From: Zootoca vivipara
Taxonomy: Eukaryota
Direction: 5' to 3'
Assembly (NCBI RefSeq): GCF_963506605.1
Contig: NC_083291.1
Span: 13,454,001 to 13,518,000 of the forward strand
DNA: 64,000 nucleotides
This document shows, piece after piece, positions 30,301 to 36,300 of the stretch. The position numbers are program-made. Numbering within the stretch: position 1 is the stretch's first letter; the number at the start of each line of letters is the position of its first letter.

Positions 30301-33300
30301 GCTTCAGAGTGCTCCTGCCTTCCTCAACAAAACAGTGGCTTATACTCTTGATTGTTTTCATTTCGACAGATGTCTAATCAATGCTCAGTACCATGACATG
30401 GCAACTAGAGAGGCAGTGTGACGTAGTGGTTAGAGTGTTGGAGTATGACTGGGGAAAGCTGAGTTCCCATCCACCATTGGTCATGTGACCTCAGTCTAGT
30501 CACTCTCTGCCAGGCTAATGTTGCTCAGAGGATCGTGATGATGACATAATTTGAAGAGCCACCATGTAGTCATGGATGGAAAACCTGACTTTGGATACAG
30601 ATTCAAAAATGGAATTTTCCGTCAAAAAAAACCAACAACAACAAAACCCTGGCCTGGCCCTGTGCCTGTAATATTAGGCAGATAAGGAGAATTAGCAGGT
30701 TACGCATACCCTAATAGACAGATGAGAAACTTCTGGCTCTTTATACTGTATATTGCTGGCATCCCGGCTTCCATCAGCATCATCCAGCATGGAAGGGGTC
30801 AGGGATTATGGGAACTGAAGTCGAACACTATCCAGAAGACCACAGGTTCCCCCTCCCTGCCTTTATACCTGCTGGCCTTTGTTGTTGTTTAGTCGTTTAG
30901 TCGTGTCCGACTCTTCGTGACTCCATGGACCATAGCACGCCAGGCACTCCTGTCTTCCACTGCCTCCCGCAGTTTGGTCAGACTCATGTTGGTAGCTTCG
31001 AGAACACTGTCCGACCATCTCATCCTCCGTCATCCCCTTCTCCTTGTGCCCTCCATCTTTCCCAACATCAGGGTCTTTTCCAGGGAGTCTTCTCTTCTCA
31101 TGAGGTGGCCAAAGTATTGGAGCCTCAGCTTCAGGATCTGTGCTTCCAGTGAGCACTCAGGGCTGATTTCCTTCAAAATGGATAGGTTTGATCTTCTTGC
31201 AGTCCATGGGCTCCAACACCACAATTCAAAAGCATCAATTCTTTGGCGATTCAGCCTTCTTTATGGTCCAGCTCTCACTTCCATACATCACTACTGGGAA
31301 AACCATAGCTTCAACTATACGGACCTTTGTTGGCAAGGTGATGTCTCTGCTTTTAAGATGCTGTCTAGGTTTGTCATTGCTTTTCTCCCAAGCAGCAGGC
31401 ATCTTTTAATTTCATGACTGCTGTCACCATCTGCAATGATCATGGAACACAAGAAGGTAAAATATCTCACTGTCTCCATTTCTTCCTCTTCTATTTGCCA
31501 GGAGGTGATGGGACCAGTGGCCATGTTCTTAGTTTTTTGATGTTGAGCTTCAGACCATAGTTTGCGCTCTCCTCTTTCACCCTCATTTAAAGGTTCTTTA
31601 ATTCCTCCTCACTTTCTGCCATCAAGGTTGTGTCATCAGCATATATGAGGTTGTTGATATTTCTTCCGGCAATCTTAATTCCGGTTTGGGATTCATCCAG
31701 TCCAGCGTTTCGCATGATGAATTCTGCATATAAGTTAAATAAGCAGGGAAACAATATACATCCTTCATGGATCACTGCCTTGTCATGGCGAAGGGGCTTG
31801 AATAACTCAGAGAAGCTATGAGCTATGCCATGCAGGGCTACCCAAGATGGACAGGTCATAGTGAAGAGTTTTGACTAAATGTGATCCACCTGGAGCAGGA
31901 ACTGGCAACCCACTCCAGTATCCCTGCCAAGAAAACTCCATGGACAAAGACTTGCTGGTCTAGTTGTTATTTAAAGCACCAAATCAAAGAGGGGTTTTTT
32001 ATAAATAAATAAAAAAGCTAGCAGTCCTCCTTAATAGCCTTTGGTCCCTTTCAACTTTGTAAATCTGTATGCCAAATCCATGATTGCTGGTTTGATGCAA
32101 TAATTGTAGCTGTGTTCCTGGGACACACATTTTACATACGCAGGCACCTTTTTTATTTGACTCAGCCTTTATCTTTCTTGTCTCCTGGTGCTAAATCTGA
32201 CTTCTTTCTGTCTTTGGGATAGTGCTAAAAACGTCTTAAGTATTTAATTTCAATGCGGGTTTGTCGGAAGGGAAACACCGCTGATTAATATGCTGGTTTC
32301 CTTGGTCTGTACTTAAAAAATGCAAGTAAAAGTGCACAAAACTATAATTAAAGAAAAATTTGACCCGCTGTGCTCTCAGCATCATCTGTAGAGGTACAAG
32401 TAATTGTTGCATGATTATATATTCTCATCGGCCTAAAGCATGAGAGTAATTGAGTGAAAAAAATCCACACATTATGGAAAATGATTACTGCCTTTGAGCC
32501 ATAATAAACAATGACATTCTCATTGTGATGGTGCTAAGCAGTAGAATAAATGAGAGCAGCCTACTTGAATGCACACGCTCAGGATCATTAGCAACTCATG
32601 TAACCCCCTAGTAAATAATTGAATCATGGGATTGTCCACAGGGTTGGCTGCTGAGGAATGGAGATATTGAGGAAGGGGAGCAAGACATAAATTTAACTAT
32701 GACTTACTGAGCAGGCATTTTGATGGTATGCATGTAGTCTTCCTGGATTGCCAAGAATTAAAAGGCTGTTGGTAATGCCGATCATTATTATTGATCATTG
32801 GTCTGGCCCTTTGAATATGCATTACAAAGTTTGTTGCAAAAACCCATTGGGGCAGACCAGTGGTTTTCTATTTTTTTCAGAGATCCCTTTTCTCATTGCC
32901 TTGTCTATAGAGAAATGCCTGTGTGTTCCCAGAGTGCACATAGATTGCAGATGGCTGGGGGCAGAACACTGAAATAAACTATTAATAAAAATAAATAAAA
33001 AGCAAAGATATGCACAGACCTTTGGCCCATGCACACTGCCAGGTCTCTCTTCCTTTTGTGATGTGCCTGAATGAAACGTGGAAGTCTCCAATTCCATGTG
33101 AACTAGGAGACTATGGTGACTAGGTTCAGAACCATAAGGCTTTCAAATCATGGACTGAAGTGGGCTTTGGTTTCCTCGGGCATGAGTGGCACTGTGGTCT
33201 AAACCACTGAGCCTCTTGGGCTTGCCGATCAGAAGGTGGGCGGTTTGAATCCCTGCAGTGGGGTGAGCTCCCGTTGCTCAATTCCAGCTCCTGCCAACAT

Positions 33301-36300
33301 AGCAGTTTGAAAGCAAGCTAGTTCAAGTAGATAAATAGGTACCACTGCGGTGGGAAGGTAAACAGTGTTTCCATGTGCTCTGGCTTCATTACAGTGTTCC
33401 ATTGCACCAGAAGTGGTTTAGTCATGCTGGCCACATGACCCAGAAAGCTGTCTGTGGGCAAATGCCAGCTCCCTCAGCCTGAAAGCAAGATGAGCGCCGC
33501 AACCCCATAGTCGCCTTTGACTGGACATAACCTTTACCTTTATCTTTTTACTGGTCACACTCCCATTCCTGGAGTGCACGCCCTGGATAATACCCACTGC
33601 TTTCCTGTGGCTGTGCACTATAGGGATAGTTCAGCACTAACAAGCAGTAACGTTCTCTGAAGTGACAATGGGAAAGCTTCTACTTGATTGCTGACCTTTG
33701 CAAACTACCACAGTGACACATTTTTTTAATCTGATTGTACACATAAAGTCATCTTTAGAGAGTCCTTCCCTGGGAGTCCTTGCTGTCTGGAACAAAGTGG
33801 TTGGTTTCTAGATTTGTGTTGATCAGCTGCAACAGATATAATTGTGGAAAGAAATCAAACGGTGTCTGTTTGCTAGTGGAAGAGACGCCATTGGTGGAAC
33901 AGATTCCACCTCTTCTCCTACCTACAGATTCTTCTGTGTGTTCCCCAAATCTTTTCTTTGGGGGATCCTCTGGAGCAGATTTGGGAAACACAGTGGTTTG
34001 CAGAAGGGATGGAAAGGAAGGGGAGGTACAGTTGTGTAAGTCTGCTTGTGCAACGTTGGATGCTACCCACAGACTTAATAAAATGCGGAGTCGTGAATTC
34101 TCACAGGAGAGTGAACTTGTGCCTCTTCTGTGTCCTCTATTTTGCTTCGGTTTCTAAAAGAACTGGAAGACTTCAGTGTCACTGGATAAGTCCTTCCAAT
34201 TACTGTAGTGCTTTTGTTCCTGTTGTTTGCATAACAGGAAAGCATGCCACCGTGGAATTTTCTCTCAAATCCTATATATCCATCCAGCACAATTGCCAGA
34301 CTTCACTTGTCTGAGGACACCTCCATTGCTGCCTAGAAAATGGGCCATCTAATGGAACAAGGGCAAGCATTAGCCCTAATTAGGACTTTTATCTGAGGAC
34401 ATTACAGCAATTATAATTGAAACACATTAGTTATAAAGAGAGGGGTCCCCTCTCTTTCCAAAATTGGTTAGTTTTTCTCTTTCCATTTCACTAGCTTGGG
34501 ATAATGAAGAGCTCCTCAAGGAAATGAGAAAATCAATAAGGTTTCTCAAACTATCTATAGAGCAGGATTCTGGAACCTTTGGCTTCTGCATGTTGGAATA
34601 CAACTTGCGCCATTGCTCACTGTTGGCCAGGCTAGCAGGAGCTGATGGGAATTGCAGTCCAACAAAGTCTGGAGGACTATAGCTTTCCCAGCCCTTCTAT
34701 GGAGGACTTCATGGTGTTTGTAGATGAAAGTTGACCAGATATCACTGTACTGTGAATTGCTAGTCAGTTAATTGAAATGGTGCTTTCAGTTAGCACAATG
34801 ACAGCAAAATGGTTGGTTATCAGTTCCAAAATGGTAGGCGTTTTACAGTGCGCTACTCAACTTGCAAACAAGGGTGTCAGAAACAATGGGAAGTGGATGT
34901 TGCAAAAAAAGGGAGAAGTTTAAAATCCAGTGATAAACTCTTTAGCAAAATGCTGATGAGCCAAAAGTCTGGGTGATTGGACTAAGGTTGTTTTTATTAC
35001 AAGAAAATTCATTTGACTTTCATGACTCTCTCTCTTTTAAGCTATCATTGCAGAGACCTTGGAAAATCAGGACCTCTCAGAATATATTCCTTTTATCAGA
35101 TATTTTGAACATAAATTACAGAGTGCCTTCGCACTCTCAGAGCCCCACTCCAGGAGAAAATGAAATTAAGTGACTGAGCTTTAAAAACTAGCAGCTGTAT
35201 GTTTAGAATATGAAAATACGAGGCGGTGGCGGGGAGTGTGATCCTGCCATTGTATCCAGCTAGAGATGAAACGGGAGAAGTCGAGCATCATCTGTGCTGT
35301 GTGAAGAAACAAGCGTAGGGAAGAGAGCTTTGTAGCGTGGCAGGGAGACGGCCTCCCAGGGCTTTGCCAAAGTTTATCCAACAAAACATAAAAGCTGCCT
35401 TTACAACATGTCCCAAGTGTCTTCCCTGCTCGCCAACCCCATTCCCCCATTAATTCAATGTATTTGTGTGCTAAGCGCACAGTGCGGGAAACTGGTGAGA
35501 TTCTAACAAGTGCCAGATGAGGCCCCAAACACCCACAGGACACTCAGTGTGGCAGCTGATGAGAGTGTGAGTCACATAGGCCTGTTGGATTCAGCAGTAT
35601 ATGCCAGGTAGCACTGGTTTGATTATTCATTTTTTTACAGACATACGCACACACATAAAAAGCAGCCCCCACATACTCTTGGGAGTTGAGGAAGCTGTAA
35701 ATAAATAATAATAATAATAATAACTAAATAAAGCCTGTTCACTATGTGGACCTACTAAGCAAGAAAACACTATGTAGGAGGATATTTCTGGAGTGATGAA
35801 CTGCCAAGGAATACAGGGAACTTTCCCTTCTGACAGTCATGTGGGAGAAGGAATGTTACAGCAGGTCTAGCTTTTTTTTATTCTTTGCCTTTCGTCACTC
35901 CAGTTTCATGCCCTCCAACGTTTCTCTGATGAACGTCCTATTCCATAATCATCATTTTATTATTTATACCATGCCTACCTGCCTGGGTTGCCCCAGCCAC
36001 TTGAGGCAGCTTCCTACATACAGTGGTACCCTGACTTACGAATTTAATGCGTTCCAAACGCACATTCGTAAGTCAAAAAAAAAATAATTGTAAGTCGAAC
36101 CCCATAGGAATCCATTGGGAGAAAAAATTCGTAAGTCGAAGCAACCCTATCTAAAAATTCGTAAGTCGAAAAAATCCTATCTAAACCGCATCCAAGATGG
36201 TGGACGGAGCTCCGTTCGTAAGTAGAAACATTCATAAGTAGAGTTATTCGTAAGTCGAGGTACCACTGTATATATAAAAACATAATTAAACGTTTTTTTA

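What the first reader, a model, noticed from the sequence alone, without database searches (positions are those of the whole stretch)
32951..33543. Inverted 600-bp copy of a SINE plus its 5' flank from 27 kb away
Seen: 32951-33180 is about 95% identical to the reverse complement of 60762-60990, and both continue into a Sauria SINE with shared head variants (GAGT.GCACTG). The 60.4-kb SINE keeps its TSD (AGGAAACC on both sides), so it is the original insertion. The 33-kb copy stops at the SINE tail and lacks the 3' TSD. Inference: either a rare 5' transduction (readthrough RNA retroposed through the SINE tail) or a local templated insertion during break repair. The short distance favours a cis mechanism.
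Basis: partly seen in the sequence, partly recalled or inferred. Interest (0 to 1): 0.65.

Follow-up and report, generated by a model that had tools for sequence, protein, structure and literature searches.

The report
SINE-anchored inverted copy of neighbouring flank DNA
A 228-base stretch of unique DNA next to one lizard-type SINE was copied, upside down, onto the head of a second SINE 27 kb away, most likely when a DNA break was repaired using the other SINE as template; it is an ordinary scar of repeat-guided repair, not a new kind of element.

Summary
Window 32951-33548 (+) aligns to the reverse complement of 60384-60990 over 607 columns at 88.6% identity. The 60-kb SINE has the 8/8 target-site duplication. 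The 33-kb unit has none.

The two halves have different histories. The flank differs at 10 of 228 positions (4.4%). The SINE part differs at 47 of 366 (12.8%) and carries three unshared indels. In the SINE, the 33-kb copy is no closer to the 60-kb copy than either is to an unrelated same-subfamily SINE at 26465-26842. Unique changes are 23, 22 and 25, and the tree is an unresolved trichotomy.

My best reading (about 0.5) is that the 33-kb SINE was already in place. A break or stalled fork at its head was repaired from the inverted SINE 26.8 kb away.

A 5' transduction is disfavoured: no duplication around the unit, a younger flank, and the short distance. After CpG masking the age difference is only marginal (p 0.04-0.08). 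No squamate genome was available, so the genome-wide and empty-site tests remain open.

The parts
32951..33176 (+). Copied flank: an inverted copy of the unique DNA 5' of the 60-kb SINE. It includes a copy of that SINE's 5' target-site duplication (GGTTTCCT, 33169-33176).
   Evidence: 10 mismatches in 228 columns, no gaps. Only two copies in the window. Sharp left boundary at 32950/32951. RNA fold unremarkable, z = -0.38.
33177..33548 (+). S33: a Sauria-type SINE with head at about 33177-33179 and an (ACCTTT)-type tail ending at about 33548. It has no target-site duplication of its own and none around flank plus SINE. It carries 7 CpG.
   Evidence: The SINE part differs from S60 at 47 of 366 positions. 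It has two private indels: a 1-nt deletion and a 12-nt deletion in the tail region.
60383..60764 (-). S60: a Sauria-type SINE and the in-situ insertion. It carries 18 CpG.
60375..60382 (-). 3' target-site duplication of S60 (AGGAAACC on the + strand).
   Evidence: Null of 22 in 4972 for an exact match of 8 or more.
60765..60990 (-). Donor flank: unique DNA 5' of S60. It begins with the 5' target-site duplication (60765-60772).
26465..26842 (+). S26: an independent SINE of the same subfamily with a different 5' flank and its own duplication (TTGCCT, 8/9 with neighbours). Used as the yardstick for independent copies.
   Evidence: The duplication was read by eye; the script missed it with my boundaries.

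Best explanation
This is repeat-primed, one-sided templated repair: long-tract conversion or a template switch that ran off the end of the repeat.

Proposed sequence of events:
1. Two SINEs of one subfamily inserted independently in opposite orientation, 26.8 kb apart, tail to tail. These are S33 on the + strand and S60 on the - strand.
2. Later a break, or a stalled or broken fork, arose at or just 5' of the S33 head.
3. The 3' end lying inside S33 paired with the homeologous S60.
4. DNA synthesis copied the S60 head, its junction with the 5' target-site duplication, and about 228 bp of S60's unique 5' flank.
5. The new strand was released and joined to the other broken end without homology, or with a few bases of microhomology.
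6. S33's own 5' flank and 5' target-site duplication were lost in the process.

The product is the inverted 'flank plus SINE' pair. It has no evident function and is a repair scar.

Shown: the anatomy, the unequal divergence, the absence of a duplication around the unit, and the star-like relation of the three SINEs. Inferred: the order of events, the break, and the enzymology.
For: 1. The match ends exactly at the SINE tail on one side and at a sharp non-repeat boundary on the other. A SINE already in place at 33 kb predicts exactly this.
2. The flank differs at 10/228 (4.4%) and the SINE at 47/366 (12.8%), Fisher p = 0.0005. With visible CpG columns masked the figures are 10/224 and 30/324, p = 0.044. 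A changepoint scan over the whole unit gives a best split after 33234, reached by 17 of 2000 permutations.
3. In the SINE, S33 and S60 are no closer than independent copies. Unique changes are 23, 22 and 25 for S33, S60 and S26. With CpG masked the pairwise values are 25/295, 23/296 and 25/305. IQ-TREE gives an unresolved trichotomy with end branches of 0.082, 0.072 and 0.093. No indel is shared.
4. No exact direct repeat of 5 bases or more lies within 10 nt of the unit's ends. The other full-length SINEs keep theirs: S60 8/8 and S39 13/13 by the script; S26 8/9 and the copy at 239-589 12/16 by eye.
5. S33's 3' junction looks like a genuine SINE insertion end. It has an (ACCTTT)-type tail followed by T, as described for Sauria SINEs in PMC13295347 (sections 3.3 and 4.1 read).
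6. The donor lies in cis, 26.8 kb away. On my own rough reckoning, not a computed result, a retrocopy landing within about 30 kb of its source in a genome of the order of a gigabase has a chance near 1 in 30,000. Ectopic repair, by contrast, favours nearby donors (established knowledge).
7. Long-tract conversion, one-sided invasion and template switching are described repair routes (PMC4888836, passages read). Homeologous SINEs do guide repair (PMC4356517, passages read).
Against: 1. With the strictest CpG mask (any CpG in any of 6 copies), the contrast of flank against SINE is 10/224 against 25/295. By my estimate this is only about p = 0.08; no call computed that value. A single copy made right after S60 inserted, with the CpG-rich SINE simply evolving faster, is therefore not excluded.
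2. No conversion tract is demonstrable inside the SINE. No changepoint is found within it (1067 of 2000 permutations reach the observed value). The apparent closeness of the S33 and S60 heads (6/78 against 11/78 and 13/78) vanishes after CpG masking (4/61 against 3/61 and 5/61).
3. The tree does not reject an S33+S60 clade (AU p = 0.466).
4. S33 and S60 share GAGT and a C-to-G change at alignment column 111. This could equally mean descent of one from the other.
5. Microhomology at the left junction is weak: GCAG in both, but offset by 4 nt.
6. At the time of the event the two SINEs would already have differed by several percent, which lowers recombination efficiency (PMC4356517).
7. The pre-event allele has not been seen.
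Confidence: 0.5

Rival explanations
1. One-step DNA-level inverted duplication of flank plus SINE together. This would be non-homologous template switching or break repair, FoSTeS/MMBIR-like. One breakpoint would happen to fall at the T-rich microsatellite-like SINE tail.
For: Inverted, local, and without a duplication around the unit. The shared head variants and identical junction fit a straight copy. After strict CpG masking the age difference between flank and SINE is marginal.
Against: The right breakpoint coincides with the SINE end to within a few bases. That is unlikely by chance: my estimate is about 1%, a few bases out of 600. The SINE halves are as diverged as independent copies and share no indel. 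The duplication would therefore have to date from S60's insertion, yet the flank is only 4.4% diverged.
Confidence: 0.17
2. 5' transduction. An RNA starting about 228 nt upstream of S60 and ending at the SINE tail was reverse-transcribed and inserted by the Bov-B LINE machinery at 33 kb.
For: The unit ends exactly at the SINE 3' tail, where target-primed reverse transcription starts. The star-like SINE tree would follow if the retrocopy was made while the family was active. Bov-B-type LINE remains are in the window, including an RVT_1 hit and (CAA)n ends. 5' transductions are known for L1 and SVA (recalled; SVA transduction papers seen only as search listing and abstract openings).
Against: No target-site duplication flanks the unit, whereas the 4 other full-length SINEs in the window keep one (and by eye). 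The flank is younger than the SINE. The flank, read in the SINE's sense, holds a T4 run and four AATAAA hexamers in both copies, which work against Pol III and Pol II read-through. Reinsertion 27 kb from the source is very improbable for LINE-mediated insertion, which has no known local preference (inference).
Confidence: 0.12
3. Flank plus SINE is a dispersed composite repeat family, and the two copies lie near each other by chance.
For: This cannot be excluded without the genome. A 73-column, 67% match of part of the flank to a palindromic stretch at 5786-5979 hints that the flank holds an old repeat fragment (0 of 60 shuffled flanks gave such a hit).
Against: S60's 8/8 duplication shows that the SINE inserted into this flank in place. 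Of the 4 other SINE copies in the window, 0 carry the flank. The flank has exactly two copies in 64 kb.
Confidence: 0.08
4. Reverse-transcriptase template switch. A normal SINE RNA was being inserted at 33 kb, and the enzyme jumped from the SINE head onto a read-through transcript of the nearby S60 locus. The result is a chimeric retrocopy.
For: It would give the same mosaic: an independent SINE body with head and flank from S60. Chimeric retrocopies made by template switching are known for L1 (recalled).
Against: It predicts a target-site duplication around the unit, and none is seen. It needs an RNA from S60's flank, which holds terminator and poly(A) signals. No precedent for Bov-B was found in the papers read.
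Confidence: 0.05

Closest known systems
Long-tract gene conversion / one-sided invasion with end-joining, and homology-started template switching (BIR/MMBIR-like)
   Same: A broken end invades a homologous or homeologous donor. Synthesis continues beyond the shared homology into the donor's unique DNA. The far end is then sealed without homology, leaving a templated insertion with one homologous and one non-homologous junction. Source: PMC4888836, passages on LTGC, BIR and MMBIR read; the paper of Belmaaza and Chartrand 1994 on one-sided invasion was seen only in its reference list.
   Different: Here the homology is a diverged dispersed SINE in inverted orientation, 26.8 kb away on the same chromosome. 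The event is old: 4.4% divergence, which is roughly 17 My at the rate of 0.0013/site/My used in PMC13295347 section 2.4 (my arithmetic). Nothing is known of the enzymes involved.
Alu/Alu-mediated rearrangements and Alu-bounded segmental duplications in primates
   Same: Dispersed SINEs act as the homology that seeds copy-number changes and duplications whose ends lie in SINEs. Sources: PMC6071635, abstract only; PMC4356517, passages read; the Alu enrichment at duplication ends is recalled from Bailey et al. 2003, which I did not see.
   Different: Those cases are mostly deletions or large duplications between direct repeats. This one is a 228-bp inverted copy in a squamate, with a Bov-B-dependent SINE.
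5' transduction by L1 and SVA retrotransposons
   Same: Unique DNA 5' of a retroelement ends up attached to a second copy of the element, and the unit ends at the element's 3' tail.
   Different: Transduced copies carry a new target-site duplication, have one age throughout, and land anywhere in the genome. None of these three holds here. The SVA papers were seen only as search listing and abstract openings.
Sauria SINE / Bov-B LINE pair of squamates
   Same: (ACCTTT)-type 3' end, target-site duplications, and Bov-B-type LINE ends with (CAA)n in the same window (PMC13295347 sections 3.2-3.3 and 4.1 read).
   Different: S33 lacks any duplication and carries foreign flank DNA on its head.

Membership tests
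Sauria SINE | 3' end made of (ACCTTT)n (PMC13295347, section 3.3) | tested here: met
   S33, S60 and S26 each end in two perfect ACCTTT units plus a degenerate third.
Sauria SINE | Flanked by a target-site duplication | tested here: met
   Met for S60 (8/8), S39 (13/13), S26 (8/9) and the copy at 239-589 (12/16); the last two were read by eye. Not met for S33: no exact repeat of 5 or more bases within 10 nt of either candidate 5' boundary.
Sauria SINE | tRNA-related head with Pol III boxes | tested here: inconclusive
   ARAGORN finds 0 tRNA-like genes in the window. Rfam gives no match at gathering score, and only two chance-level matches at E of 4.5 or more in 32900-33600. A B-box-like GGTTTGAATCC (GGTTCGAATCC in S26) is visible. 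The box consensus is recalled.
Sauria SINE | Similarity to the published consensus | not testable with these tools
   No reference SINE sequence or repeat library is on hand. The name rests on the tail, the duplications and the LINE partner.
Sauria SINE | Bov-B LINE partner in the same genome, ending in (CAA)n | tested here: met
   Five LINE 3' ends carry (CAA)n-like tails. RVT_1 hit at 45945-46379, E = 4e-8.
5' transduction retrocopy | New target-site duplication around flank plus element | tested here: not met
   None of 5 bases or more within 10 nt of 32951 and 33548. The only nearby repeat is an imperfect 12/14 match, 11 nt and 17 nt away from the ends (the null reaches it in 52 of 3969).
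5' transduction retrocopy | Flank and element of one age, with the element a daughter of the source copy | tested here: inconclusive
   4.4% against 12.8%, p = 0.0005; with visible CpG masked, p = 0.044; with the strict mask, 10/224 against 25/295. An S33+S60 clade is neither shown nor rejected.
5' transduction retrocopy | Unit ends at the element's 3' tail | tested here: met
One-sided repeat-primed templated repair | One end of the copied tract lies in a repeat that pre-existed at the recipient site | tested here: inconclusive
   The SINE halves are as diverged as independent copies and the flank is younger. This fits pre-existence, but a very early one-step copy is not excluded.
One-sided repeat-primed templated repair | The other end is a non-homologous or microhomology junction, with no target-site duplication | tested here: met
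   Sharp boundary at 32950/32951, with only a 4-nt GCAG match offset by 4 nt. No duplication.
One-sided repeat-primed templated repair | Conversion tract inside the repeat next to the copied flank | tested here: inconclusive
   The best changepoint is 56 nt into the SINE (LLR 7.17) against 6.42 at the SINE boundary. No changepoint is found within the SINE alone. The head signal is lost after CpG masking.
One-sided repeat-primed templated repair | Pre-event allele (SINE without the flank) in relatives | not testable with these tools
   No squamate genomes are in the collections offered.

The most novel reading that the evidence does not exclude
The unit was made through RNA. Either it is a true 5' transduction by a Bov-B-mobilised, tRNA-type SINE, or it is a reverse-transcriptase jump from a SINE RNA onto a nascent transcript of the neighbouring locus. 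In both cases reinsertion was in cis, only 27 kb away. This would mean that RTE-clade machinery can carry upstream host DNA and can act locally.
Probability: 0.15. Interest if true: 0.6.

Novelty: new member of a known kind. Interest (0 to 1): 0.3.

Why it matters
If the reading is right, this is a clean natural example, outside mammals and yeast, of a dispersed SINE serving as the homology that lets repair copy a neighbour's unique DNA. That is one way in which small inverted duplications are seeded. It also carries a practical warning: 'SINE plus shared flank' pairs need not be transductions or new composite families. Comparing the divergence of the flank and the repeat halves, and measuring the repeat halves against an unrelated copy, tells the two apart. 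The locus itself shows no sign of function.

Tried and rejected
- Head-limited mosaic. The raw counts suggested that the first 78 SINE columns of S33 and S60 are closer (6 against 11 and 13 differences). CpG masking removed this (4/61 against 3/61 and 5/61). No changepoint exists within the SINE. I do not claim a mapped conversion tract.
- Search for a duplication around the unit and around the S33 SINE alone: none found. A copy of S33's 3' flank upstream: none within 3 mismatches anywhere near. The 18 matches window-wide equal the chance expectation of 17.6.
- A 12/14 imperfect direct repeat (32926-32939 and 33566-33579) is mildly unusual (52 of 3969 in the null). It sits 11 and 17 nt off the ends and fits no model. 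It is left unexplained.
- tRNA and Rfam scans found nothing usable.
- The flank as a structured RNA: z = -0.38. The flank as coding: the 106-aa open frame 32822-33142 (-) has no Pfam hit. Of the 16 longest of 86 open frames scanned, 1 had a hit, RVT_1.
- Similarity between the SINE tail and the LINE 3' ends in the window: only 8-mers.
- My first self-comparison script printed nothing because of a filter error. It was redone.
- Literature. The phrase search for 5' transduction failed on the prime sign. Written as '5 transduction' it matched nothing (0 occurrences in every listed paper). I found no paper describing this kind of event for Sauria SINEs among the 21 papers that hold the term 'Sauria SINE' (15 listed; only PMC13295347 was read). 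This is not proof of absence.
- Not done: a genome-wide search with the flank, orthologous sites, and long-read support. The collections on hand hold no squamate genome. Supplementary tables of PMC13295347 (lists of duplications and query sequences) were not seen.
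Full report
**What is there.** The window is squamate-like, not human. It holds six copies of a SINE whose 3' end is made of ACCTTT units. It also holds five 3' ends of a LINE that finishes in (CAA)n, one of them with a reverse-transcriptase domain. This is how Sauria SINEs and reptilian Bov-B LINEs are described in PMC13295347 (sections 3.2, 3.3 and 4.1 read). No repeat library or reference SINE was available, so the family name rests on these features.

The SINE copies fall into two subfamilies.
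- The first comprises S26 (26465-26842, +), S33 (about 33177-33548, +) and S60 (60383-60764, -).
- The second comprises 239-589 (-), 39683-40033 (+) and the internally deleted 7594-7842 (-). It is 74-76% identical to the first.

**The observation.** Region 32951-33548 aligns with the reverse complement of 60384-60990 over 607 columns at 88.6% identity (alignment).
- The first 228 columns are not SINE. They differ at 10 positions, without gaps (95.6%), and occur nowhere else in the window even in a word-7 search.
- S60 is bracketed by an exact 8-bp duplication (AGGAAACC on the + strand at 60375-60382 and 60765-60772). Random position pairs reached an exact match of 8 or more that close to both boundaries in 22 of 4972 trials. 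S60 therefore inserted in place, and its flank is the original.
- The 33-kb copy contains the 5' duplication copy and the identical junction. It runs to the end of the SINE tail and then into unrelated DNA.
The one correction is that only GAGT, not GCACTG, is private to the pair.

**The two halves are not alike.** The flank differs at 10/228 (4.4%). The SINE part differs at 47/366 (12.8%, Fisher p = 0.0005) and carries three indels, none of them shared. A changepoint scan over the unit puts the best split after 33234, which is 56 nt into the SINE (LLR 7.17, against 6.42 at the flank/SINE boundary). Only 17 of 2000 permutations reach that value.

S26 is an unrelated insertion of the same subfamily with its own flank and duplication, so it gives a yardstick for independent copies.
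- In three-way comparison the private changes are 23 (S33), 22 (S60) and 25 (S26), with 2 sites where all three differ.
- Pairwise differences are 47/366, 51/369 and 52/378. With every CpG seen in any of six copies masked they are 25/295, 23/296 and 25/305.
- IQ-TREE leaves the three as an unresolved trichotomy with end branches 0.082, 0.072 and 0.093. The nominal best tree even pairs S33 with S26 (support 40/0). An S33+S60 clade is not rejected either (AU p = 0.466).

The SINE at 33 kb therefore shows no sign of being a daughter of the SINE at 60 kb, while the flank beside it clearly is a copy of S60's flank.

**How strong is this.** CpG decay inflates SINE divergence. S60 holds 18 CpG, S33 holds 7, and each flank holds 2. 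Masking visible CpG columns leaves 10/224 against 30/324 (p = 0.044). The stricter mask leaves 10/224 against 25/295, which I estimate at about p = 0.08 (counts; no call computed that p). The age difference is thus suggestive, not proven.

I also could not map a conversion tract. The raw closeness of the two heads disappears after CpG masking, and no changepoint exists within the SINE alone (1067 of 2000 permutations).

**Junctions.** No exact direct repeat of 5 bases or more lies within 10 nt of the ends of the unit, or of the S33 SINE alone. The other full-length copies keep a duplication. S60 (8/8) and S39 (13/13) were found by the script. S26 (8/9) and the copy at 239-589 (12/16) were read by eye, because my script boundaries missed them.

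S33's 3' flank has no second copy upstream. The left boundary is sharp. Recipient and donor share only GCAG, offset by 4 nt. A 12/14 imperfect repeat lies 11 and 17 nt outside the ends (null 52 of 3969) and is unexplained.

**Mechanism.** The exact stop at the SINE tail means that the tail is a retroposition end. Either the whole unit was retroposed (5' transduction), or a SINE was already there.

The second possibility fits the data better, for four reasons:
- the SINE halves are as diverged as independent copies;
- the flank is younger;
- there is no duplication around the unit;
- the donor is only 26.8 kb away in cis.

I therefore propose the following. A break or stalled fork arose at the S33 head. 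The end lying inside S33 invaded the inverted, homeologous S60. Synthesis continued through the S60 head and junction into 228 bp of its flank. The new strand was then end-joined, with loss of S33's own 5' flank and duplication. Such long-tract, one-sided and template-switching repair is well described (PMC4888836, passages read), and diverged SINEs are known to steer repair (PMC4356517, passages read).

At the rate of 0.0013/site/My used in PMC13295347 (section 2.4), 4.4% pairwise corresponds to roughly 17 My. The CpG-masked SINE divergence of 8.5% corresponds to roughly 33 My. This is my arithmetic and is rough.

**Against 5' transduction.** Besides the missing duplication and the unequal ages, the flank read in the SINE's sense carries a T4 run and four AATAAA hexamers in both copies. 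A LINE-mediated reinsertion within 30 kb of its source is very unlikely a priori (inference).

Three other readings remain possible but less likely:
- a one-step non-homologous inverted duplication, which needs a breakpoint at the SINE end by coincidence and a date equal to S60's insertion;
- a dispersed composite family, which conflicts with S60's duplication and with 0 of 4 other SINE copies carrying the flank;
- a reverse-transcriptase template jump, which predicts a duplication around the unit.

**What stays open.** No squamate genome, repeat library or related locus could be searched. The genome-wide copy number of the flank, the empty or intermediate allele, and a proper subfamily consensus are therefore untested. 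The supplements of PMC13295347 were not seen.

**Verdict.** The feature is real and more than chance. It is most likely an old scar of SINE-guided templated repair. It belongs to a known kind of event, has no evident function, and is of modest interest.

Noticed in passing
window 45564-46595 (-), 30879-31950 (-), 36792-36999 (+), 6181-6392 (+), 59982-60234 (+): Five 3' ends of one LINE family finish in GACTAAAC repeats and (CAA)n, as described for reptilian Bov-B. An RVT_1 domain lies at 45945-46379. One copy lies only about 150 bp beyond the tail of the 60-kb SINE.
   Followed up: partly
window 33177-33548 versus 60383-60764: The two SINEs have lost very different numbers of CpG (7 left against 18), although their non-CpG distances from the third copy are equal. 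This suggests different methylation histories at the two sites.
   Followed up: partly
window 32926-32939 and 33566-33579: An imperfect 12/14 direct repeat lies just outside the unit, 11 and 17 nt from its ends. It is reached by 52 of 3969 random pairs. It fits none of the models.
   Followed up: partly
window 33548-33555, 39666-39678 / 40032-40044, 26836-26842: The 3' flank of the 33-kb SINE shares 8 nt (TTACTGGT) with the 13-bp target duplication of the SINE at 39.7 kb. TTAC also follows the tail of the 26-kb SINE. This may reflect the T/TA target preference reported in PMC13295347.
   Followed up: no
window 19035-19184, 22415-22565, 53088-53239: About 150-bp elements that match their own reverse complement and each other (80-95%). 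They look like small palindromic (MITE-like) repeats.
   Followed up: no
window 5786-5979: A roughly 200-bp stretch matches its own reverse complement (68%). It also matches part of the donor flank weakly (60809-60881, 73 columns, 67%; 0 of 60 shuffled flanks gave such a hit). The flank may contain an old repeat fragment.
   Followed up: partly
window 239-589 (-), 39683-40033 (+), 7594-7842 (-): A second SINE subfamily, 74-76% identical to the first. It has deletions of 17 and 11 columns relative to the first subfamily. The copy at 7.6 kb has lost its middle part.
   Followed up: no
window 16752-16882: A run of 131 N (assembly gap or mask). It was left untouched.
   Followed up: no
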